Source of the DNA: an uncultured virus (IMG/VR IMGVR_UViG_3300037010_002878)
Taxonomy: Duplodnaviria; Heunggongvirae; Uroviricota; Caudoviricetes
Length of the DNA: 64,000 nt
Strand: one strand, 5' to 3'
Virus record (IMG/VR): IMGVR_UViG_3300037010_002878
Coordinates: 1 to 64,000 of that record
Each line of letters starts with the position of its first letter. The first letter of the stretch is position 1. Shown here one piece after another: positions 1 to 16,778 of this stretch. The translations under genes were made by a program, and so were the position numbers. The notes beneath the pieces are model-generated. The model made no database searches and was not told the DNA's origin. It was given only the letters and a program-made list of their open reading frames with translations.

Positions 1-21
1 GGGGAATCAAATTCCCCTTTA
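1..21 (-). terminator. Intrinsic terminator-like hairpin downstream of Asn-rich leader ORF (3' tail cut off by window edge)
   Basis: Minus strand AAAGGGGAAT-TTG-ATTCCCC: 7-bp G/C-rich stem about 10 nt after the leader stop. Any U-tract would lie outside the window. Confidence 0.65.
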
Positions 22-29
22 AAGAAAAC

Positions 30-173
30 TTAGATTGAAGTGTTCTGTAAAGAAGAATTATTTAACCATTGTTGGCATTGCCCCAACCCAGCTAAATTTA
101 GTAGATTATTGCGGAGCACGTTATTACGATTTGCTGCGTTGATATTAACGATGTTGTTGTTTACGTTATACAT
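30..173 (-). CDS. 47-aa Asn-rich putative leader peptide (not in ORF track)
   Basis: Manual translation MYNVNNNIVNINAANRNNVLRNNLLNLAGLGQCQQWLNNSSLQNTSI*. RBS AAGGAG 7 nt upstream, promoter at 240-261. Confidence 0.7.
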   Translation of the reverse strand: MYNVNNNIVNINAANRNNVLRNNLLNLAGLGQCQQWLNNSSLQNTSI

Positions 174-239
174 TTACGTGCTCCTTATTTTTATTTTATT
201 TATTGTTTGAAAAATTACTTTTTCTTTTTATGTATATGT

Positions 240-261
240 ATTATAACACAATATACCTTAA
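240..261 (-). promoter_or_regulatory. Host-type sigma70 promoter TTAAG-N11-TATAAT (extended -10) driving Asn-rich leader
   Basis: Minus strand TTAAG gtatattgTGt TATAAT; the same motif recurs at 8 other sites. Confidence 0.7.
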
Positions 262-342
262 AGTTGGATTAAATTTATTAACTTTTGTGAAAGACTTTTC
301 ATTTAAGAAAATATTGCCCTTCATAAAAATTAATTAAAGGTT

Positions 343-419
343 TGTTGCTAGACGGAATTGCACTGTATCTGGAGTGTCCAATGTGCTCTCCTATTTTACT
401 ATTATAACTACAAGCAACA
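343..419 (-). pseudogene. Degenerate tRNA-like element
   Basis: Acceptor-like pairing TGTTGCT/AGCAACA, T-loop-like GTGCAATTC, imperfect central stem around TTGGA, no CCA. Confidence 0.3.
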
Positions 420-426
420 TATCAAA

Positions 427-510
427 TGGTGGGTATGGTTGGACTTGAACCAACAGTCAGAAAGAACGGTTTTACAGACCGCGCGGCTACCAATTACCGG
501 TTACACACCC
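427..510 (-). tRNA. trnY: tRNA-Tyr(GTA) copy 1
   Basis: Cloverleaf GGGTGTG/CATACCC, loop CTGTAAA, long variable arm, GTTCAAGTC T-loop, encoded CCA. Confidence 0.93.
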
Positions 511-667
511 ATATAAAACTTCATCTTGTGCAACATAGGAATGTGAACGTTGAACGTTATAGCCTCATTCCAAGCACATAAGCCTTGCAGAAGATATGAT
601 AGTTTCATCACTGCAATGACTTCAAAGTTTTAATAATAATATTCTAAAATGTCATTATTAAAACTTT

Positions 668-741
668 TGGTGCTCGTACCCAGAGTTGAACTGGGGTTAC
701 GCCGTTATAAGCGGGGCGCTCTACCATTAAGCTATACGAGC
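668..741 (-). tRNA. trnI: tRNA-Ile(TAT), rare AUA-reading anticodon
   Basis: GCTCGTA/TACGAGC acceptor, anticodon loop CT-TAT-AA, T-arm CCCAG-TTCAACT-CTGGG, ACCA end. Confidence 0.9.
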
Positions 742-783
742 ATATAAAATGTTTCGTATATCAGATATGTCTGTTTCCATCAT
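727..783 (-). CDS. Mini-ORF (17-18 aa) with three ATA codons, overlapping the 5' end of tRNA-Ile(TAT)
   Basis: AAGGAG-cat-ATG ATG GAA ACA GAC ATA TCT GAT ATA CGA AAC ATT TTA TAT GCT CGT ATA GCT TAA = MMETDISDIRNILYARIA*. Confidence 0.5.
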   Translation of the reverse strand: MMETDISDIRNILYARIA

Positions 784-874
784 ATGCTCCTTTTGTTTTT
801 TAATTACTTTTTATGTACAAATATTAAGAATATAATCCAACTTAAAGTTGGTATATTCAAAAAGAATTTCTAAA

Positions 875-1762
875 TCAATCGTACCATTTATCTCTTGTAC
901 TTGATACGATTAATATGTCTTTATCTAGCTTAAAACTTGTCTTATTATCGCCGAAAACTAGTTTTACTGCATACATTACATCATCTTCACCATATTTAGT
1001 TATTAGCTTTTTAAGGTTAAATTTAGTTGTTATATATGTACGTGTACCTGATACATATGGTGATGATGGAATTGAACTTGATGATGCATCAGAACTAATA
1101 GGTTTCAATTTTTTAAGTTCACGTATAATTTCCGTAGAAGATAATTCTTTAGAAAACACTTCTGAAAATTTTTCTTTAGCGTCTTTAAATGCTTTGAATT
1201 TATTATCAATATCATTTATTAGCGCATTTGCTATAACTCCATCAAAATTACCTTTTGCAAACACTTCCAATTCAGTAGAAGTTCCATTGTCAAAGATGAC
1301 TTTTCCATACACCCCTGATACATAAGTACTGTCCTTAACATTATTCCTTAAATTTTCTACTTTTTTAATTGATGTATATGCTTTCTTATCCAAAGCATTA
1401 ATAATCAAACCTTTTCTGAACGTTGATACGTACTCATTCCATTCAGGAATTTTATATGATTTTGATTCTTTTACATCAAGTGAGTTGTTGTTTTCGGTGT
1501 ATAATCTTACCAACACTTCCATATTATCTGTAATATATATAGATAGGATAAACGGAAGGTTATTAATCCTAACCTTAAAGTAAGTTACCCTTCCTTTGTT
1601 TTCTGTGAAATATATACCTGACCAATATCTATCACCTATCCAAGGATGTAAACTAACTTTGTCCTTGATACCCCACGCACTTTTATTACTGAAATTAACA
1701 TTTTTCAATGCATCATCGATAAATGTATTGCTCTCTTCAAATAGTTCTTTAAATTGCATCAT
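875..1762 (-). CDS. Hypothetical protein, possible internal head protein
   Basis: 295-aa ORF preceded by late promoter TATAAATA (1781-1788). N-terminus MMQFKELFEE resembles T4-type capsid-targeting sequences. Confidence 0.7.
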   Translation of the reverse strand: MMQFKELFEESNTFIDDALKNVNFSNKSAWGIKDKVSLHPWIGDRYWSGIYFTENKGRVTYFKVRINNLPFILSIYITDNMEVLVRLYTENNNSLDVKESKSYKIPEWNEYVSTFRKGLIINALDKKAYTSIKKVENLRNNVKDSTYVSGVYGKVIFDNGTSTELEVFAKGNFDGVIANALINDIDNKFKAFKDAKEKFSEVFSKELSSTEIIRELKKLKPISSDASSSSIPSSPYVSGTRTYITTKFNLKKLITKYGEDDVMYAVKLVFGDNKTSFKLDKDILIVSSTRDKWYD

Positions 1763-1797
1763 TATCCCTAATTTTATGATTATTTATAATTAGGCCT

Positions 1798-1873
1798 TGG
1801 TTGCTGTTGCAGGAGTTGAACCTGCTGTCTCTGGGTTATGAGCCCAGCGGCGAAACCGTTTGCCCCTACAGCT
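1798..1873 (-). tRNA. trnM: tRNA-Met(CAT), initiator-like
   Basis: Loop CT-CAT-AA, three G-C pairs in anticodon stem (CTGGG/CCCAG), 1:72 mismatch, CCA. Confidence 0.88.
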
Positions 1874-1885
1874 ATATAAAATTTT

Positions 1886-1960
1886 TGGTCCTCGATGATT
1901 GAATCGAACAATCATTTTGCGATTATCGGTCGCATGTACTAACCGTTGTACGAATCGAGG
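1886..1960 (-). tRNA. trnI: tRNA-Ile(GAT) copy 1
   Basis: Stem TGCGA/TCGCA, loop CC-GAT-AA (C33), CCTCGAT/ATCGAGG acceptor, ACCA. Confidence 0.88.
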
Positions 1961-1965
1961 ATGAA

Positions 1966-2048
1966 TGGTGGTTAGGTGTGGTTTCGATCCACTCCCGTAA
2001 AGACAGGTTTTACAGACCTGTTGCCAGAGCCACTGGCTTTACCTAACC
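1966..2048 (-). tRNA. trnY: tRNA-Tyr(GTA) copy 2
   Basis: GGTTAGG/CCTAACC acceptor, CAGGT-CTGTAAA-ACCTG, long variable arm, ACCA. Confidence 0.9.
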
Positions 2049-2053
2049 ATATA

Positions 2054-2127
2054 TGGTGCCCAATGACTGAATCGAACAGTCGACAACTGATTACAAATCA
2101 GTTATTATACCTCTTAACTAATCGGGC
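2054..2127 (-). tRNA. trnT: tRNA-Thr(TGT)
   Basis: Loop TT-TGT-AA in ACTGA/TCAGT stem, GTTCGATTC T-loop, ACCA. Confidence 0.92.
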
Positions 2128-2139
2128 ATTTTATCTTTT

Positions 2140-2232
2140 TGGAGGGCAATGTCGGGTACGATCCGACAAGAGTTTTTTAGGCTCTGCTAGTTTTCAAGAC
2201 TAGTGCAATTATTCCATTTCTGCCAATTGCCC
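2140..2232 (-). tRNA. trnS: tRNA-Ser(TGA)
   Basis: Loop CT-TGA-AA in CTAGT/ACTAG stem, long variable arm, GGGCAAT/ATTGCCC acceptor, CCA. Confidence 0.88.
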
Positions 2233-2237
2233 ATGTT

Positions 2238-2311
2238 TGGTAGTTCTAGAAGGTACTGACCCTTCGTCTATCCCTTATCAAGGGATTACTCTGCCATTGA
2301 GCTATAGAACT
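2238..2311 (-). tRNA. trnI: tRNA-Ile(GAT) copy 2
   Basis: ATCCC-TTGATAA-GGGAT, AGTTCTA/TAGAACT acceptor, atypical T-loop GTCAGTA, ACCA. Confidence 0.87.
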
Positions 2312-2319
2312 ATTTGTTT

Positions 2320-2394
2320 TGGCGATCTTGAGGAATTTTGAAATCCCGACCCTTCCGCTGACAACGGAGCACTCTGCCTCTGAGCTACAAGATC
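2320..2394 (-). tRNA. trnD: tRNA-Asp(GTC) copy 1
   Basis: Loop TT-GTC-AG, GATCTTG/CAAGATC acceptor, G discriminator, CCA. Confidence 0.88.
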
Positions 2395-2405
2395 ATTTAA
2401 ATTAT

Positions 2406-2482
2406 TGGTGGAGAATACGGGTTACGCTCCCGTCTTCCTACGTTGCAAGCGTAGAGTAATCAACCTAATATACTAATTCCCC
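2406..2482 (-). tRNA. trnA: tRNA-Ala(TGC)
   Basis: Loop CT-TGC-AA, acceptor GGGGAAT/ATTCTCC with the G3:U70 Ala identity pair, ACCA. Confidence 0.92.
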
Positions 2483-2642
2483 ATTTTTAAATTTCATTTT
2501 TACGACCCTTAAGACAACCTAAATTTTTTCATATTCAGGAAAAGATTCTTTTTCTTTATTTTCTTATTTCAACATTGAATTATTAGTTTCCCATTTAAGG
2601 TACTTACAACGTTCGCTACGTGAAAGCTAATTCTTGAACGTC

Positions 2643-2714
2643 CGGTCCCACGGGGAATTGAACCCCGATCTCATGGCTGACAACCACATATAATAACCAC
2701 TATACGATGAGACC
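2643..2714 (-). tRNA. trnD: tRNA-Asp(GTC) copy 2 (no encoded CCA)
   Basis: Loop TT-GTC-AG, GGTCTCA/TGGGACC acceptor, CGGGG-TTCAATT-CCCCG T-arm, G73. Confidence 0.85.
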
Positions 2715-2726
2715 ATTTTAAATTTT

Positions 2727-2802
2727 TGGTAACACTAACGGGGCTCGAACCCGTAACATATCCTTGAAAGGGATATAAGATAACCTATTTCTCCATAGTG
2801 TC
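2727..2802 (-). tRNA. trnE: tRNA-Glu(TTC)
   Basis: TATCC-CTTTCAA-GGATA, GACACTA/TAGTGTT acceptor, ACCA. Confidence 0.9.
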
Positions 2803-2812
2803 ATTTAACAAT

Positions 2813-2901
2813 TGGTGGTCAGTCTTGGAGTCGAACCAAGAGTCCTTACGAAACCGGGTTACAGCCGGTGCACCTATCCAGTTAGTGTTGATTAACTGAC
2901 C
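2813..2901 (-). tRNA. trnY: tRNA-Tyr(GTA) copy 3
   Basis: ACCGG-CTGTAAC-CCGGT, GGTCAGT/ACTGACC acceptor, long variable arm, ACCA. Confidence 0.88.
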
Positions 2902-3030
2902 ATTCTTTGAGAAGTTTTAAGTAAACTCTCGTAAAAGACTGCTAATTCAGAACACAATAAACTCGCGTTATATTGTACTTAAAATGAAATAATTGATTGA
3001 ATTTGTCCGAATGGACTGAGGATTCATTCA

Positions 3031-3068
3031 ATGTCTTTCATTTCTGAAAGACATAAATGACTTTCAGA
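3031..3068 (-). promoter_or_regulatory. Mutually exclusive hairpins (putative attenuator) right after leader-peptide stop
   Basis: Minus strand TCTGAAAG (3068-3061) can pair with CTTTCAGA (3050-3043). This competes with the perfect 10-bp hairpin ATGTCTTTCA-GAAA-TGAAAGACAT (3054-3031). Confidence 0.6.
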
Positions 3069-3194
3069 TTAGATAATATCTGTCTCCGATGCAATCGCAT
3101 CCGTTTCAGAAATAGAGTAGGCATAGGTATAATCAGATGTGTTTACTGATGTATATGATATTACATTTACTGTTGAGTACATTGTGTAAATCAT
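3069..3194 (-). CDS. 41-aa putative leader peptide of the tRNA operon (not in ORF track)
   Basis: MIYTMYSTVNVISYTSVNTSDYTYAYSISETDAIASETDII*. RBS AGGAG 7 nt upstream, promoter at 3229-3250. Confidence 0.75.
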   Translation of the reverse strand: MIYTMYSTVNVISYTSVNTSDYTYAYSISETDAIASETDII

Positions 3195-3228
3195 TTTGTT
3201 TCTCCTATGTTTCTTTTTATATGTTGTT

Positions 3229-3250
3229 ATTATATCATATGTTACCTTAA
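3229..3250 (-). promoter_or_regulatory. Promoter TTAAG-N11-TATAAT for leader plus tRNA array
   Basis: Minus strand TTAAG gtaacataTGa TATAAT. Confidence 0.72.
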
Positions 3251-3285
3251 AATAACATTAAATGATACAAATCTTTTTCTTTTAT

Positions 3286-3672
3286 TTATTGTTTGAAAAA
3301 TACGTCCGTTGCAATTTTAGCATACAAATTATAGTTAAGATCTTTCAATTCCAATTGTTCAATAACGTCTAAGGCTTTATTCTTAGTAAGTGTTGGAAAC
3401 GACAAATCAATATTGTTTGCCAAATATTCTTTTATTTCTTCTAAAGAAATTGTAGCGCTGAACTTGCTTGTGTTTTCATTTACTTCTTCATTTAAACGTT
3501 CTAATACAAGTTCACGTCCTACTTTTTTTGAAAACATATCTTTGCTTGAGCAGACTGAACATGCCAGAAACAATGAATCATCATTGTACATCCATCCCAA
3601 GGTGACACCGCCTTTATTACCTTCAAATTGAAAGTGTTTAAATCTTGTATTATCCAATGTCGCTGTTAACAT
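3286..3672 (-). CDS. Hypothetical phage protein (CxxxDxFxKKxGR motif)
   Basis: 128-aa ORF with RBS AAGGA and own promoter (3702-3723). Confidence 0.75.
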   Translation of the reverse strand: MLTATLDNTRFKHFQFEGNKGGVTLGWMYNDDSLFLACSVCSSKDMFSKKVGRELVLERLNEEVNENTSKFSATISLEEIKEYLANNIDLSFPTLTKNKALDVIEQLELKDLNYNLYAKIATDVFFKQ

Positions 3673-3754
3673 TTTGTTTCCTTCTTATTTTAAATTATGT
3701 TATTATATCAGCACTTACCTTAAAATCTTATAAATAAAACAAAAAGGAGGGAGT

Positions 3755-4384
3755 ATGGCTTGGAACTTGAATAATAAAACCAATGAATATATATTACATC
3801 GAAACCAATCTAAAGAATTAATTGATATATATGGCGTCCAATTGAGTTATTTCAAGATAACCAATAAAGGCAAAAATACTGTTTTTCAAGAATATACATA
3901 CAAAGAATCTAATCCCAATAATGTTTTTTCAATTATGATGTATCCAGAGAATGTAGAAGCATTTGACAACGCTGGTGATTTATTTAGCAAGTTTGGTATG
4001 CAGATTACGGATACGATTAATTTGATTGTAAGCACAGAAACATTTAAAGACATATATGACTTAACCGATTTTAAAAATGCATTTCAATCAGTGGGAGATA
4101 TTATAAAAACTCCTAGAGGAAAATTATTTGAAGTAACAGGTGTTGAAGATGAAGTTCCCGGGTTGAGCAATATATTCACATCAAATAACGGAAAAAATGT
4201 ATTAATGTTAAAATGTAACATATACAATTATAAACCATCAGACAAGGTTCCAGAAATTGTAGATCCTAGTGAGTATGATTTTTCAAATTTAGATTCCGTC
4301 TTTAACGGTCAGAAAGAAGAACAAGAAGTAGAAACTACAACATATACAGCTCCTAGAGATTCTGTATTTGGAGATTTAGGATAA
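3755..4384 (+). CDS. gp14: Neck (head-tail connector) protein, T4 gp14-like
   Basis: Motifs ELIDIYG, GDLFSKFGMQITD, GDII..LFEVTGVE; late promoter TATAAATA at 3729-3736. Confidence 0.85.
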   Translation: MAWNLNNKTNEYILHRNQSKELIDIYGVQLSYFKITNKGKNTVFQEYTYKESNPNNVFSIMMYPENVEAFDNAGDLFSKFGMQITDTINLIVSTETFKDIYDLTDFKNAFQSVGDIIKTPRGKLFEVTGVEDEVPGLSNIFTSNNGKNVLMLKCNIYNYKPSDKVPEIVDPSEYDFSNLDSVFNGQKEEQEVETTTYTAPRDSVFGDLG

Positions 4385-4395
4385 GGAGATAAATA

Positions 4396-4725
4396 ATGAC
4401 TACAGTTTTAAATTCTACAATGGGTGTAACTAATTTTACATCTATTCCAACAGCACCTACAGCTACTAAAGGGGATAGTTCACTTAAATTAGCTACTACA
4501 GAATTCGTTATGAATGCTTTATCAGGCGTAAGTACAACTAAATACAAATTCGTAGCAACAGACGGACAAACTGTATTTAATGCTGGTGCAGTTTTAGTTG
4601 ACCCAATGGTTTATCTAAACGGTGTTCTTCAAACAAAAGATTTGAGTTATACATTCACACCTGGTGCAACATCAATAACCTTTTTAGATGCTAGGGTTCT
4701 TAACGAAACTGTAGTAATTGCATAA
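4396..4725 (+). CDS. Small tail-fibre-related protein
   Basis: PTAPTATKGDSSLKLATTEFV fibre repeat followed by an ATDGQTVF...VYLNGVLQ...SYT beta domain. Confidence 0.7.
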   Translation: MTTVLNSTMGVTNFTSIPTAPTATKGDSSLKLATTEFVMNALSGVSTTKYKFVATDGQTVFNAGAVLVDPMVYLNGVLQTKDLSYTFTPGATSITFLDARVLNETVVIA

Positions 4726-4734
4726 GGATTATTA

Positions 4735-5778
4735 ATGTATGAAAATTCAATAGTAGTAGTAAAAAATTGTACATCAACCGGCATAGATGTAATTCCTATT
4801 AATTCATTAATATTAAATAAAGATACTGGTGATATTTTTTTATTAACAAATAAAACAAACGTATCATCTACTACACAATTTTGTGATGTAGTAGGTAAAG
4901 TATTAATCGCTAGTCTTGTTATAAGTGGAGCATTGTTTTATGGCGGTAGTAATAATATAAATCTAAATTTAGCTACCATGCTATCAGCAACGGCTACATT
5001 AGTTCAAGCTGAAAAGAGTGTAGGTACAGCTAGATATGGATTAGCTGGAGCTAACGTAGGTACAAATGCTTTATTTTATGGTGGATATACTACAACATAT
5101 GTATCTACCACTACTTTATTATCACCAACAATTAATTTAGTACAATCAGAGACTAATGTAGGTACAGCTAGGGCTACCCCAGCTGGGGCTAAGGTTGGTA
5201 CAAATGCTTTATTTTACGGTGGTGCCGTTGATTCAAGCTATTATGGGGTAGATACCGTAACATTACTATCACCAACAGCTACATTAGTTCAAGCTGAAAC
5301 AAATCTTGGAACATCTATGTACTCATTAGCTGGAGCTAACGTAGGTACAAATGCTTTATTTTATGGTGGAGCTAATTATGGAAGCTATAATACAGCTTCT
5401 GTAGTATCTCCATTGGGCGTCTTAGTATCTCAGTCTACTAATATAGGTACAGCTAGATTTGGCCTAGCAGGAGCAAATGTTGGTACGAATGCTTTATTTT
5501 ATGGTGGAATACAAATCTGGCCCACTGTTCTCAATACAACTACTTTGTTATCACCGACGGCTGTTTTATTACAAGCTGAAACAAGTGTTGGATCAGTAAA
5601 ATGGTCAAATTCTGGAGTTAATGTTGGTACAAATGCCCTATTTTATGCTGGGTGTAATGATGCATCAACAACATTTATCAATACTACTACACTACTATCA
5701 CCTACCGCAACATTAGTACAGCCAGAGACTAATGTTGGAACATCAGGCCGTCATTACTTAGGAGGAGCATTAATATGA
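4735..5778 (+). CDS. Kelch-like beta-propeller repeat virion protein 1
   Basis: About six ~47-aa repeats ALFYGG-x-TTLLSPTATLVQAETNVGTARYGLAGANVGTN. Confidence 0.75.
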   Translation: MYENSIVVVKNCTSTGIDVIPINSLILNKDTGDIFLLTNKTNVSSTTQFCDVVGKVLIASLVISGALFYGGSNNINLNLATMLSATATLVQAEKSVGTARYGLAGANVGTNALFYGGYTTTYVSTTTLLSPTINLVQSETNVGTARATPAGAKVGTNALFYGGAVDSSYYGVDTVTLLSPTATLVQAETNLGTSMYSLAGANVGTNALFYGGANYGSYNTASVVSPLGVLVSQSTNIGTARFGLAGANVGTNALFYGGIQIWPTVLNTTTLLSPTAVLLQAETSVGSVKWSNSGVNVGTNALFYAGCNDASTTFINTTTLLSPTATLVQPETNVGTSGRHYLGGALI

Positions 5779-6893
5779 GTTTTGAAAGACAGTCTCTTGT
5801 TGTTTTTAAAGATGAGTCATCAACTGGAATAAACTTTGTTGCAAATAATAGATTTGTATTTGTGAACTCAACTGGATATATGTATATTAAAGTTAATTCA
5901 ACTAATATCACTACCAATACCACCATAGCACAAGCAATTTCAGGTGCAAATTTAATTTTAATAACTGGAGTTATTCCTGCTCCACCAACAACGACAACAA
6001 CGACAACAACGACAACAACGACAACAACTACTACAACAACGTCAACTAGTTTTACCAAAGCTTTATTTCATAATGGGATAGATAGTTCACCAACAAGTGT
6101 ATCAACAACCACATTGTTATCTTCAACGGCTACTTTAGTTCAAGCAGAAACTTCAGTAGGTACAGCAAAATTTGGCGTAGCAGGAGCCAATGTTGGTACA
6201 AATGCATTATTTTATGGCGGAACAGATAATTCTTATTATTACAACACAGTTACATTATTATCACCAACTGCGACATTGGTTCAAGCTGAGTCTACTGTTG
6301 GGTCAGGAAGAAGTTATATATCTGGAGCAAATGTTGGTACAAATGCACTATTCTATGCTGGGTACAATTCTGGATATAAGAATACGGCAACAATATTGAC
6401 ACCTACTGGTTCATTGGTTCAAGCTGAGTCAACTGTAGGAACAGTGAGAACTGGAACGGGTGGAGCCAATGTTGGTACAAATGTATTATTTTATGGTGGA
6501 ACAAATGGTTCATATTTTAATACAGCAACACTGTTATCATCAACAGCTACTTTGGTACAAGCGGAATCAAATGTTGGCACAGCACGGTCATATACTGCTG
6601 GAGCTAATGTTGGTACGAATGCTTTATTCTACGGTGGGTATAATGGTTCATACTTAAATACAGCAACACTGTTATCATCAACAGCTACTTTGGTACAAGC
6701 TGAATCAAATGTTGGTTCTACTAGACTTGGACCAGCAGGAGCTAACGTAGGTACAAATGCTTTATATTATGCTGGGGCTAATAGTGTTAAATTAAATACT
6801 GCTACATTATTATCGCCAACAGCTACTTTAGTTCAAGCAGAAACTAATATAGGTAGTACACCTAGACATGGACTCGCAGGATCTAGTTTATAA
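5775..6893 (+). CDS. Kelch-like beta-propeller repeat virion protein 2 with poly-Thr linker
   Basis: Same N-domain and six repeats; PAPP-T18 linker. Confidence 0.78.
   Translation: MSFERQSLVVFKDESSTGINFVANNRFVFVNSTGYMYIKVNSTNITTNTTIAQAISGANLILITGVIPAPPTTTTTTTTTTTTTTTTTTSTSFTKALFHNGIDSSPTSVSTTTLLSSTATLVQAETSVGTAKFGVAGANVGTNALFYGGTDNSYYYNTVTLLSPTATLVQAESTVGSGRSYISGANVGTNALFYAGYNSGYKNTATILTPTGSLVQAESTVGTVRTGTGGANVGTNVLFYGGTNGSYFNTATLLSSTATLVQAESNVGTARSYTAGANVGTNALFYGGYNGSYLNTATLLSSTATLVQAESNVGSTRLGPAGANVGTNALYYAGANSVKLNTATLLSPTATLVQAETNIGSTPRHGLAGSSL
5988..6041 (+). repeat. ACAACAACG-type microsatellite encoding poly-Thr
   Basis: About four 9-bp units in an 18-codon Thr run. Confidence 0.9.
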
Positions 6894-16136: not shown

Positions 16137-16778
16137 TTAATTCACCGTAATATATTTAACTAACCAAATAGAATCTTCACTGGCCAATGTAGCTTTTAAT
16201 TTGAAAGTCTGTTCAGAACCTTTATTGTTCTTAATAGTGAAGCTTCCTCTCTCAGATAAATTTATTTTTAATTTAACTTTTCCGTTTATCTCTGCATTTT
16301 CTGGAGTTTTATCTTGCATTTTTATATAAATGTTTTCATAATGTTTTATACTATCAATAGGGTCGTCTATAAAGTAGTTAAATTTATAAACAGTTTCCCC
16401 TTCATTTAAACTCCATTTAGAAGTTAGTTCATTGAAAAAACAATTAGAACCAGATATATCTATTCTAACCAAACCTAAAACTTTTTTATCAAAATCATAA
16501 ACTGGAAAACTATCTAAAAAATCATCTATACACATAACAGCTAGTCTGTAAGTGTCATAATCTACTTTTCCCAAATGAACTGCTACCATATTCGGAACAT
16601 TAATATCTTCTAATGCATAATCTGAATAATGATACCCTTTAACTATATTAGATTTAGCATCAATCAATAAAGTCAAGAATTTTTCAGTATCGTATTTAGA
16701 GAAAACCTCCATTTTGTTTTTATCAAATATTTTTTGATATGCATTTCTTTCTTCTTGGGTTAAATAATGTTTAATCAT
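16137..16778 (-). CDS. Hypothetical protein
   Basis: 213-aa ORF coupled to the U32 gene. Confidence 0.7.
   Translation of the reverse strand: MIKHYLTQEERNAYQKIFDKNKMEVFSKYDTEKFLTLLIDAKSNIVKGYHYSDYALEDINVPNMVAVHLGKVDYDTYRLAVMCIDDFLDSFPVYDFDKKVLGLVRIDISGSNCFFNELTSKWSLNEGETVYKFNYFIDDPIDSIKHYENIYIKMQDKTPENAEINGKVKLKINLSERGSFTIKNNKGSEQTFKLKATLASEDSIWLVKYITVN

What the first reader, a model, noticed from the sequence alone, without database searches (positions are those of the whole stretch)
2902..3250. 41-aa leader peptide made of the amino acids of the downstream tRNA operon, followed by switchable hairpins
Seen: promoter (3229-3250), then AGGAG, then MIYTMYSTVNVISYTSVNTSDYTYAYSISETDAIASETDII*. 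It uses only 10 amino acids (T7 S7 Y6 I6 V3 D3 A3 E2 N2 M2), with no K, L or F despite the AT-rich genome. The 11 tRNAs downstream are Tyr x2, Glu, Asp x2, Ala, Ile x2, Ser, Thr and Met. The last 23 residues use only T/S/D/Y/A/I/E. All 7 Ser codons are TCN, the family box of tRNA-Ser(UGA). TCTGAAAG just after the stop can pair with CTTTCAGA, competing with the 10-bp GAAA-loop hairpin at 3031-3054. A ribosome at the stop would mask it, whereas stalling upstream would free it. An in-ORF segment (3104-3113) is also complementary to 3040-3049. Caveat: the GAAA hairpin lacks a U-tract, so the output may be Rho-dependent termination, pausing or processing.
Basis: partly seen in the sequence, partly recalled or inferred. 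Interest (0 to 1): 0.92.

Follow-up and report, generated by a model that had tools for sequence, protein, structure and literature searches.

The report
Codon-matched leader gene before phage tRNAs
An uncultured phage puts a tiny translated gene, spelled almost only in the amino acids of the tRNA genes behind it and ending in a two-state RNA fold, in front of each of two tRNA blocks, which looks like a gauge that ties tRNA production to how well those codons are being read.

Summary
A recurring promoter motif, an AGGAG site and a 41-codon ORF (3069-3194, minus strand) precede the tRNA block. 35 of its 40 non-initiator residues belong to the amino acids of that block. It is the top-scoring of 26,959 open 40-residue windows in the 76-kb contig.

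A second small ORF (30-173) is the top window for the amino acids of the next tRNA block. The split of 15 amino acids made by tRNA gene order is the tied-best of 6,435 possible splits at sorting the two peptides.

A relative (79% capsid identity) keeps both ORFs with diverged sequence, the same composition, and the same three mutually exclusive helices starting at the stop codon, with compensatory changes.

I read it as a ribosome-sensed RNA switch gating the tRNA block (about 0.6). The polarity is unresolved.

There is no expression evidence and no canonical terminator. I found no paper on such control of tRNA genes. This scan has noted the same design before, on a relative and on other phages.

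The parts
3229..3251 (-). Promoter of the leader unit: TTTAAG box, extended -10 (TGATATAAT)
   Evidence: The motif occurs 6 times in the window against 0.01 expected, always on the - strand just upstream of ORFs. The same motif stands before the tRNAs of Campylobacter phage NCTC12673.
3201..3206 (-). Shine-Dalgarno AGGAGA, 7 nt before the ATG
   Evidence: Read. ATAGGAGAA is identical in L010. In both phages the site can pair with a mid-ORF segment in the predicted fold.
3069..3194 (-). Leader ORF 1: 41 codons plus stop
   Evidence: The homologue in L010 has 45 codons with diverged sequence and the same composition. A ~96% variant differs by T8I, V17A and one in-frame TCA (Ser) insertion.
3079..3110 (-). 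Hairpin inside the ORF (core GAUGC-N4-GCAUC, encoding T-D-A-x-A-S)
   Evidence: The same stem with a different loop occurs in L010. A role as an RNA-polymerase pause hairpin is inference.
3058..3068 (-). Segment A (helix 1), starting on the base after the TAA stop
   Evidence: A:B helix, -10.4 kcal, z -4.6, 0 of 200 shuffles as stable.
3043..3060 (-). Segment B (helix 2), which pairs with A or with C
   Evidence: 10 nt are shared between the A:B and B:C helices.
3022..3044 (-). Segment C (helix 3), which pairs with B or with D and includes the 5' arm of the terminator-like hairpin
   Evidence: B:C has 16 pairs, -17.1 kcal, z -6.1. 12 nt are shared between B:C and C:D.
2981..3044 (-). C:D long hairpin (inner hairpin 2992-3032, small top hairpin 3005-3016)
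   Evidence: -18.1 kcal, z -4.3, 0 of 200 shuffles as stable. The inner part is -10.4 kcal. The same architecture occurs in L010 with 5 double changes in the outer helix.
2980..2991 (-). U-rich run UUAUUUCAUUUU, the 3' flank of the inner hairpin
   Evidence: It does not meet the scan tool's terminator rule.
2902..2979 (-). Spacer with further small hairpins before the first tRNA
   Evidence: z -1.0 here, -2.3 in L010. The hairpin just before the tRNA is kept with changed sequence (read).
1801..2901 (-). tRNA block 1: Tyr, Glu, Asp, Ala, Asp, Ile(GAU), Ser(UGA), Thr(UGU), Tyr-like, Ile(GAU), Met(CAU)
427..741 (-). Ile(UAU) and Tyr(GUA) tRNAs after a 295-aa ORF, still upstream of the next promoter
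240..262 (-). Promoter of the second leader unit
30..173 (-). Leader ORF 2 (47 codons; N15 L7 Q4 V3 G2 C1 W1 ...)
   Evidence: In window-type contigs it is followed by tRNAs Asn x2, Val, Cys, Gly x2, Leu x4, Gln, Trp.
1..26 (-). 5' part of hairpin X after leader 2, cut by the contig end

Best explanation
The 41-codon ORF is a translated leader whose only job is to be read. It is written in the codons served by the tRNA genes behind it, and its stop codon abuts a chain of three mutually exclusive RNA helices (A:B, B:C, C:D). The position of the first ribosome therefore decides which fold the nascent transcript takes, and so whether RNA polymerase goes on into the tRNA block. I hold this general claim, with either polarity, at about 0.6.

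The version I commit to follows the anatomy. If the ribosome is late or absent, A pairs with B. C is then free to form the long C:D hairpin, whose inner stem is followed by a U-rich run, and transcription stops. If the ribosome has kept pace and sits on the last codons or the stop, it covers A. B then pairs with C, which locks up the 5' arm of that hairpin, and polymerase reads through. The block would thus be made only while its own codon set is decoded briskly: a stringent-like or self-reinforcing licence. The confidence below is for this specific version.

Shown: the ORF, its signals, the composition match, the helices, their overlap and their conservation. Inferred: translation, termination at C:D, and the polarity.
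For: **Composition match**
- Leader 1 has 35 of 40 residues in block-1 amino acids. Leader 2 has 33 of 46 in block-2 amino acids. Fisher test of the two leaders against the two sets gives 5e-9. There is no K, F, P or H in 86 residues (5e-8).
- Each leader is the top open 40-residue window of the genome for its own set. The same holds in 32.7 kb of the relative: 38/40 against a next-best 29, and 30/40 against 27.
- The tRNA-order split of the amino acids is the tied-best of 6,435 possible splits (2 reach it). In the relative it is the unique best of 3,432.
- Codon level: Ile ATA is 1 of 12 against a genome share of 0.43, and the block-1 Ile tRNA is GAU. Thr ACT is 0 of 14 against 0.41.

**Evidence for a translated frame**
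- Promoter and ribosome site are present.
- The frame is open in both lineages despite low DNA identity and length changes in whole codons.
- The ~96% variant carries one in-frame TCA insertion and two substitutions, all within or into the block-1 set.

**RNA switch**
- The 96 nt after the stop fold with z -5.3 (window) and -5.9 (L010), 0 of 200 shuffles as stable.
- Each of the three helices is significant on its own.
- Neighbouring helices share 10-13 nt. The helices start at the same distance from the stop in both phages. Read from the pair lists, double compensatory changes number about 2 in A:B, at least 6 in B:C and 5 in C:D.
- Masking 10 nt or more from the last codon flips the minimum-energy fold to B:C in both phages.

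**Polarity**
- The inner C:D hairpin (-10.4 and -7.2 kcal, U-rich tails) is in the range of terminator-like hairpins after this phage's capsid gene (-11.4) and after gene 16137..16778 (-7.2).
- Leader 2 ends in a terminator-like hairpin X, 9 nt after its stop, that also gives way to an alternative fold when the ribosome site is masked, in both phages.
Against: - There is no transcript or ribosome evidence. The runs that hold the locus are probably DNA and are kept as contigs.
- C:D is not a canonical terminator. Its stem is AU-rich with internal loops, and the scan tool reports nothing terminator-like in 2900-3070.
- Segment A lies after the stop codon. Only a ribosome on the last 2-3 codons or the stop can mask it, which differs from classical attenuators, where the regulatory codons overlap segment 1.
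- The polarity I lean to is anti-homeostatic: a shortage would give less tRNA. That is less intuitive for a phage that carries tRNAs.
- The tract freed in the B:C state is C-rich and G-poor (C 22-24%, G 7%, against 14% and 16% for the strand). This would suit Rho loading and the opposite polarity.
- Only two diverged lineages and one near-identical variant exist, so the covariation rests on very few sequences.
- A ribosome at the stop would not cover the GC core of hairpin X.
- Leader 2 is 64% identical between lineages, as conserved as a real protein.
Confidence: 0.35

Rival explanations
1. Same codon-matched sensor and same RNA switch, but with homeostatic polarity. The ground state A:B plus C:D is permissive because it hides a G-poor, C-rich tract. 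A ribosome that runs quickly to the stop masks A, B:C forms, and the tract is exposed. Rho (or an RNase) then ends or destroys the transcript before the tRNAs. Shortage of the block's tRNAs would thus raise their synthesis.
For: - All the composition and structure evidence for the best explanation applies here too.
- The tract freed in the B:C state has C 22-24% and G 7% in both phages, against 14% and 16% for the strand.
- No canonical intrinsic terminator is present.
- The logic is adaptive for a phage that tops up scarce tRNAs.
- Rho-dependent leader-ORF switches are known (mgtA/mgtCBR of Salmonella; recalled, plus the start of the abstract of PMC3641672 in the listing).
- Earlier notes of this scan on other phages read the design this way (unchecked here).
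Against: - The exposed tract is only about 45 nt.
- For leader 2 the same exposure logic gives the opposite polarity: the unstructured tract is exposed when the ribosome is late. The two units of one cluster would then work in opposite senses.
- The ground state including the U-run hairpin looks like the terminated state of classical attenuators.
- Neither Rho nor the host is identified.
Confidence: 0.25
2. The two small ORFs encode functional peptides in their own right. The hairpins are ordinary processing, stability or gene-end elements of a structured 5' region. The composition match arises because the peptides are co-expressed with, and adapted to, the tRNAs of their own transcript, without any regulatory read-out.
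For: - Leader 2 is 64% identical between lineages, with a conserved C-terminus.
- Both ORFs have full expression signals.
- Hairpin X resembles gene-end hairpins of this phage.
- Small ORFs are common in phage tRNA regions (recalled).
Against: - Leader 1 diverges strongly in sequence and length while keeping its composition.
- Neither ORF matches any family in Pfam or PHROGs at E 0.1 or better, apart from one 14-bit PHROG hit at E 0.067 for L010's leader 2. No homologue beyond itself was found for leader 1.
- Adaptation of two unrelated peptides to exactly the tRNA split has no obvious benefit for a peptide function.
- This reading does not explain three overlapping helices locked to the stop codon with compensatory changes.
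Confidence: 0.15
3. Generic translation coupling. Any translated ORF at the 5' end shields the long untranslated tRNA transcript from premature (Rho) termination or helps load polymerase. The codon match is a by-product of local codon supply rather than a sensor.
For: - An ORF stands at the 5' end of two tRNA transcription units.
- The ORFs are C-rich and G-poor relative to the strand.
Against: - It does not explain why each ORF uses the amino acids of its own block and avoids those of the other.
- It does not explain the conserved bistable fold at the stop codon.
- The tRNA cluster of Campylobacter phage NCTC12673 has the same promoter type without any ORF.
Confidence: 0.08
4. Chance: a low-complexity open frame in AT-rich DNA that happens to lie next to tRNA genes.
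For: - Low-complexity peptides can keep their composition through slippage.
- The two lineages are homologous, not independent.
Against: - It is the top window of 26,959.
- A second, unrelated ORF does the same for the next block.
- The exact partition test gives 2 of 6,435 and 1 of 3,432.
- The ribosome site, start and frame are conserved.
Confidence: 0.02

Closest known systems
Multivalent leader-peptide transcription attenuators of enterobacterial amino-acid operons (thr and ilv leaders; also trp, his, leu, pheA)
   Same: - A short translated ORF lies between the promoter and the regulated genes.
- The ORF is enriched in several kinds of codon tied to the products of those genes.
- A chain of overlapping helices 1:2, 2:3, 3:4 follows, with a U-run after 3:4.
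- Ribosome position selects the fold.
   Different: - The regulated genes are tRNA genes, not biosynthetic enzymes.
- The leader covers 7-8 amino acids spread over about 40 codons, with no run of one codon.
- Segment 1 lies after the stop codon, so a ribosome that finishes the ORF (not one stalled in it) masks it.
- The 3:4 hairpin is AU-rich and not a canonical terminator.

The features of these families are recalled, not taken from a call.
Rho-dependent leader-ORF switches (Salmonella mgtA/mgtL and the mgtCBR tandem attenuators)
   Same: - Short leader ORFs whose translation speed at particular codons selects between alternative stem-loops.
- No intrinsic terminator is needed.
- Two ORF-controlled units occur in one region.
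   Different: - No Rho site is shown here.
- The targets are tRNAs.
- The codon set is matched to the downstream genes themselves.

I saw only the start of the abstract of PMC3641672 (listing). The rest is recalled.
pyrBI-type coupling attenuator
   Same: Read-through depends on a ribosome following polymerase closely enough to prevent a hairpin. This fits the polarity I lean to, and hairpin X after leader 2.
   Different: - There the leader ORF runs through the terminator, and the signal is polymerase pausing at low UTP.
- Here the ORF stops just before the helices, and the signal would be decoding speed.

Recalled, not from a call.
T-box riboswitches
   Same: A cis-acting leader RNA reports on the state of a particular tRNA and controls read-through.
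   Different: - A T-box binds uncharged tRNA directly, needs no translation, and controls synthetase or amino-acid genes.
- No T-box or any other Rfam family matches 2900-3250 at E of 1 or better, except a 23-bit chance-level hit.
Earlier notes of this scan on codon-matched leader ORFs before phage tRNA blocks (e1-6091022 and e1-6091031 on a relative; about 80 notes on other genomes)
   Same: - The same design: a tiny ORF in the amino acids of the tRNAs behind it, ending in switchable hairpins.
- The notes on the relative also report that no ordinary stop signal follows.
   Different: - These are unchecked AI notes on other DNA.
- Most read the switch as 'on when ribosomes stall'.
- Here the anatomy of both units points, weakly, the other way.

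Membership tests
Leader-peptide (ribosome-mediated) transcription attenuator | Short ORF with its own ribosome site in the 5' leader, between the promoter and the regulated genes | tested here: met
   Promoter 3229-3251, AGGAGA 3201-3206, ORF 3069-3194, first tRNA at 2901. The same layout occurs in L010.
Leader-peptide (ribosome-mediated) transcription attenuator | ORF enriched in codons whose decoding reports on the product of the regulated genes | tested here: met
   35/40 and 33/46 residues in the matching tRNA sets. Top windows genome-wide. Partition test 2 of 6,435 and 1 of 3,432.
Leader-peptide (ribosome-mediated) transcription attenuator | Overlapping alternative helices 1:2, 2:3, 3:4 | tested here: met
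   A:B, B:C and C:D share 10-13 nt pairwise. Each has 0 of 200 shuffles as stable. They are conserved with double changes.
Leader-peptide (ribosome-mediated) transcription attenuator | Helix 3:4 is an intrinsic terminator (stable stem directly followed by a U-run) | tested here: inconclusive
   Inner hairpin -10.4 and -7.2 kcal with U-rich tails, comparable to gene-end hairpins of this phage. The stem is AU-rich and the consensus scan does not call it.
Leader-peptide (ribosome-mediated) transcription attenuator | Regulatory codons overlap segment 1, so a ribosome stalled on them frees segment 2 | tested here: not met
   Segment A begins on the base after the stop codon. Only the last 2-3 codons and the stop can mask it (inference from ribosome footprint size, recalled).
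Leader-peptide (ribosome-mediated) transcription attenuator | Regulated genes are amino-acid biosynthesis or related protein genes | tested here: not met
   tRNA genes lie downstream.
Leader-peptide (ribosome-mediated) transcription attenuator | Read-through responds to translation of the leader | not testable with these tools
   The runs holding the locus are contigs and probably DNA.
Rho-dependent leader-ORF switch (mgtL type) | Alternative folds expose or hide a C-rich, G-poor unstructured tract | tested here: inconclusive
   The B:C state frees about 45 nt with C 22-24% and G 7%. This is short, and Rho dependence is untestable here.
T-box riboswitch | Match to the T-box covariance model (specifier loop and T-box sequence) | tested here: not met
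   No T-box match in 1-4500 at E of 1 or better.

The most novel reading that the evidence does not exclude
Phage tRNA blocks are each governed by their own tRNA-supply gauge: a test ORF written in the block's codons, whose transit time sets transcription of that block. Two such gauges in one cluster divide 15 amino acids between them, in exactly the way the tRNA genes are divided.

If the polarity is homeostatic, this is a direct feedback controller of a tRNA pool. It would also respond when host defences cut particular tRNAs. It would be a regulatory class for RNA genes that has not been described in print.
Probability: 0.3. Interest if true: 0.9.

Novelty: new variant of a known kind. Interest (0 to 1): 0.8.

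Why it matters
How phages time and dose their own tRNAs is largely unknown, and tRNA genes are generally thought to be controlled at the promoter. A leader ORF spelled in the codons of the tRNAs behind it would carry ribosome-mediated attenuation from amino-acid metabolism over to the tRNA pool itself. It would also give a compact, portable sensor of decoding speed for chosen codons.

The case here is clean. Two units in one cluster sort 15 amino acids exactly as the tRNA genes do, and a diverged relative keeps the composition and the RNA switch while the peptide sequence drifts. It also raises a sharp, testable question about polarity: licence or homeostat.

Tried and rejected
**Searches for more relatives**
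- Phage records by DNA, near and distant, and with the 128-aa neighbour protein: nothing close.
- IMG/VR by the neighbour protein, capsid, neck protein, the tRNA-Tyr motif, leader 2 and a leader-2 DNA motif: only the window type and the L010/G001 type.
- Metagenome contigs: none. Genome contigs: none.
- Protein search with leader 1: only itself.

**Family and structure searches**
- Rfam on 1-4500: no family in the leader.
- Pfam and PHROGs on both leaders of both phages: no match apart from one 14-bit PHROG hit at E 0.067 for L010's leader 2.
- RNAalifold on a MAFFT alignment of the two post-stop regions failed because the B segments were misaligned. I compared the helices from separate folds instead.

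**Expression**
- The runs laid (X5-X8) are contigs and probably DNA. They showed a ~96% variant but nothing about transcripts. Parts of the stretch without cover in those runs mean nothing.

**Related phages**
- The cultured relative, Campylobacter phage NCTC12673, has the same promoter motif before its 4 tRNAs but no leader ORF.
- The record behind L029 had no tRNA match.

**Leads dropped**
- An 18-codon ORF with 3 ATA codons running into tRNA-Ile(UAU) (window about 738-791) has no counterpart in G001. I dropped it as a third leader.
- The in-ORF complement 3104-3113 is not kept in L010.
- The idea that TCCTCA in the C:D loop pairs with the ribosome site: only 4 pairs are possible, and the motif is changed in the variant.
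- The resemblance of the TTTAAG box to the C. jejuni -35 consensus (passages of PMC3824568) holds in sequence but not in spacing.
Full report
**What the window is.** The window is the first 64 kb of a 76.4-kb, 30% G+C virus contig. It carries T4-like head, neck, baseplate and tail-fibre genes. Its neck protein is at most 40% identical to those of Campylobacter phages. A relative's record is rated 55% complete, so both contigs are probably fragments of a larger genome.

**The observation.** All items are confirmed.
- The minus strand reads, in order: TTTAAGGTAACATATGATATAAT (3229-3251), AGGAGA (3201-3206), ATG (3194), and 41 codons ending in TAA (3069-3071).
- The promoter motif TTTAAG-N7-8-TGNTATAAT occurs 6 times in the window against 0.01 expected, always on the minus strand before ORFs. 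The same motif stands before the tRNAs of Campylobacter phage NCTC12673. Its TTTAAG box resembles the C. jejuni -35 consensus in sequence but not in spacing (passages of PMC3824568).
- The peptide has the stated composition. All Ser codons are TCN.
- Downstream lie 13 tRNA-like genes, not 11.

**Is the composition more than chance?**
- The seven amino acids of the first tRNAs (Y, E, D, A, I, S, T) make up 45.6% of the phage's predicted proteins but 34 of the leader's 40 non-initiator residues (binomial 2.9e-7).
- Among all 26,959 open 40-residue windows in six frames of the contig, the leader is the single best. The next non-overlapping one (31) is a poly-Thr run.

**A second unit.**
- The same promoter type at 240-262 drives a 47-codon ORF (30-173) rich in N, L and Q. 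The window contig ends inside the hairpin behind it.
- Identical contigs that reach further show that it is followed by tRNAs Asn x2, Val, Cys, Gly x2, Leu x4, Gln and Trp.
- 33 of its 46 residues are in that set (3e-8). It is the top window of the genome for the N/Q/L/G/W set taken from the relative's second block (28/40; next 22).
- The two leaders are reciprocally depleted in each other's sets (Fisher 5e-9). Neither contains K, F, P or H (5e-8).
- Of the 6,435 ways to split these 15 amino acids 8:7, the split made by tRNA gene order gives the best possible sorting of the two peptides. Only 2 splits reach it.

**The relative.**
- L010/G001 has 79% capsid identity, 64% neck identity and 35% identity in the gene upstream of the leader. 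It has the same layout.
- Its leader 1 has 45 codons. It is hard to align with the window's apart from two short islands (ISYTS, TDAxAS). Yet 39 of its 44 non-initiator residues are in the set of its first seven tRNAs: Tyr (ARAGORN relaxed), Glu, Ala, Asp, Ile, Ser, Thr.
- Its leader 2 is followed by Asn, Gln, Leu, Gly, Val, Leu, Leu, an Asn-like, a Cys-like and Trp. The Val and Cys-like anticodons are my own reading of Rfam hits.
- In the 32.7 kb held, both leaders are again the top windows (38/40 against 29; 30/40 against 27).
- The tRNA split is the unique best of 3,432, or of 792 if only default ARAGORN calls define block 2.
- The two lineages share ancestry, so they are not independent for gene order. 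The peptide sequences have drifted while the composition was held.

**A close variant.** Wastewater runs hold a ~96% variant.
- Its leader ORF differs by three changes: T8I, V17A, and an in-frame TCA (Ser) insertion. All are within or into the block-1 set.
- The stretch 2813-3285 shows 3 listed substitutions, against at least 23 in the adjacent 387-nt protein gene. Ten further differences were not listed by the tool.

**Codon level.** In the two leader-1 versions together:
- Ile is ATY in 11 of 12 codons. ATA is 43% of Ile codons in the genome, and the block-1 Ile tRNA is GAU.
- Thr ACT is 0 of 14 (genome 41%).
- Ala GCT is 1 of 9 (genome 51%).
- Ser is TCN in 16 of 18.

This is suggestive rather than decisive.

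**The RNA behind the stop.**
- The 96 nt after the stop fold far better than shuffles: z -5.3 and -5.9, 0 of 200 as stable. The ORFs themselves do not (z about -1).
- Three helices follow each other: A:B (-10.4 and -11.9 kcal), B:C (-17.1 and -17.4) and C:D (-18.1 and -19.2). Each is significant alone.
- Neighbouring helices share 10-13 nt, so they exclude each other.
- In both phages A starts 0-1 nt after the stop. B:C spans about positions 10-48 and C:D about 28-93.
- Read from the pair lists, the two phages differ by double, pair-preserving changes at about 2 positions of A:B, at least 6 of B:C and 5 of the outer C:D helix.
- Free RNA takes A:B plus C:D. Masking 10 nt or more from the last codon, as a ribosome at the stop would, flips the minimum-energy fold to the extended B:C hairpin in both.
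- B:C locks up nearly the whole 5' arm of the inner C:D hairpin.
- A hairpin inside the ORF (GAUGC-N4-GCAUC) is conserved. So is the capacity of the ribosome site to pair with a mid-ORF segment. By analogy these could be a pause site and a limiter of re-initiation. That is inference.

**What is the output?**
- B:C has no U-run in either phage.
- The inner C:D hairpin (-10.4 and -7.2 kcal) is followed by UUAUUUCAUUUU in the window and by UUUUUCUUUUCAUCUU in L010. That is in the range of the terminator-like hairpins after this phage's capsid gene (-11.4) and after gene 16137..16778 (-7.2). It is AU-rich, and the consensus scan does not call it.
- On this reading the device is a 1-2-3-4 attenuator with one twist: the stop codon lies before segment 1. 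A ribosome that arrives at the end of the ORF in time gives read-through. A delayed or absent one gives the stop.
- Leader 2 agrees in sense. A GC-rich hairpin X like the phage's gene-end hairpins begins 9 nt after its stop. In both phages it gives way to a conserved alternative fold when the first 6-12 nt are masked. A ribosome at the stop would not cover the GC core of X.
- Against this, the tract freed in the B:C state is C-rich and G-poor. For leader 2, however, the same logic gives the opposite sense.
- I therefore hold the general mechanism at about 0.6. Within it I lean about 60:40 to "brisk decoding licenses read-through".

**Comparison with what is known.**
- The nearest systems are the multivalent leader-peptide attenuators (thr, ilv), the Rho-dependent leader-ORF switches (mgtA, mgtCBR), and the pyrBI coupling attenuator. 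Their features are recalled, apart from the start of the abstract of PMC3641672 (listing).
- The locus meets the ORF, codon-enrichment and overlapping-helix criteria. It does not meet "regulatory codons overlap segment 1" or "protein genes regulated". The terminator criterion is inconclusive.
- No Rfam, Pfam or PHROG family claims any part, apart from two chance-level hits: a 23-bit Rfam match at 2987-3073 (E 0.96) and a 14-bit PHROG match for L010's leader 2 (E 0.067).
- Five full-text searches found no paper on leader-peptide control of tRNA genes (listings only).
- This scan has noted the same design before, on a relative of this phage (e1-6091022, e1-6091031) and on about 80 findings in other genomes. 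Those are unchecked notes. I reached the reading before seeing them and tested it on my own data.

**Limits.**
- There is no expression evidence.
- The host is unknown.
- Covariation rests on two diverged sequences and one near-identical variant.
- A few anticodons rest on relaxed calls or on my own reading.
- Ribosome footprint sizes and attenuator kinetics are from general knowledge.

Noticed in passing
window 340-420 (-) and L010 17010-17100 (+): A conserved ~80-nt element closed by a GTTGCT...AGCAAC stem (core GGACACTCCAGATACrGTGCAATTCCGTC) sits in the tRNA cluster at different places in the two phages: after the last Tyr tRNA here, and between Ser and Thr in L010. No Rfam match at E of 1 or better.
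   Followed up: no
window 738-791 (-): An 18-codon ORF (MMETDISDIRNILYARIA) with an AAGGAG site and 3 ATA codons runs into tRNA-Ile(UAU), the tRNA that reads ATA. The context of the Ile(UAU) gene in G001 has no counterpart, so it may be chance.
   Followed up: partly
window 2813-2901 (-); L010 about 16490-16580: The first tRNA-Tyr has an aberrant D-arm and scores below the Rfam tRNA cut-off (only a 21-bit tRNA-Sec hit), yet it is conserved in both phages. In L010 its 5' part shares the 8-mer TTAATCAA with strand D of the leader switch (read); in the window the shared word is only AATCAA.
   Followed up: no
L034 4286-4372; L010 17627-17715: The first Asn(GUU) tRNA after leader 2 is 87-89 nt long and embedded in a long extended stem (about 15 pairs beyond a normal acceptor stem). 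It may be a processing substrate rather than a plain tRNA.
   Followed up: no
window 1-26: The contig ends exactly inside the GC-rich hairpin after leader 2. Identical IMG/VR contigs read through it, so the end is an assembly break, not a genome terminus.
   Followed up: yes
L032 3154-3738 and 4566-5339; window 2403-2643: The tRNA cluster is mosaic. G001 carries two homing-endonuclease-like ORFs (by their HNH-like motifs, not scanned) between tRNAs. The ~96% variant in wastewater runs lacks 2404-2642 (Ala tRNA and spacer) and has different sequence after the first Tyr tRNA.
   Followed up: partly
window 4735-6893 (+): Two adjacent tail-fibre-like proteins are built from many copies of a ~45-residue repeat (LLSPTATLVQAE.NVGT...GANVGTNALFYGG). 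One carries a run of 18 Thr.
   Followed up: no
L035 (Campylobacter phage NCTC12673, 85879-86221 of its record): Its 4-tRNA cluster is preceded by two copies of the same promoter type (TTAAGGTTATT.TGATACGAT) and a hairpin-rich spacer, but no small ORF.
   Followed up: yes
window 3195-3215 with 3120-3128 (-); L010 16163-16176 with about 16235-16248: In both phages the ribosome-binding site of leader 1 can pair with a segment in the middle of its own ORF, using different sequences. This could limit translation to the first ribosome.
   Followed up: no
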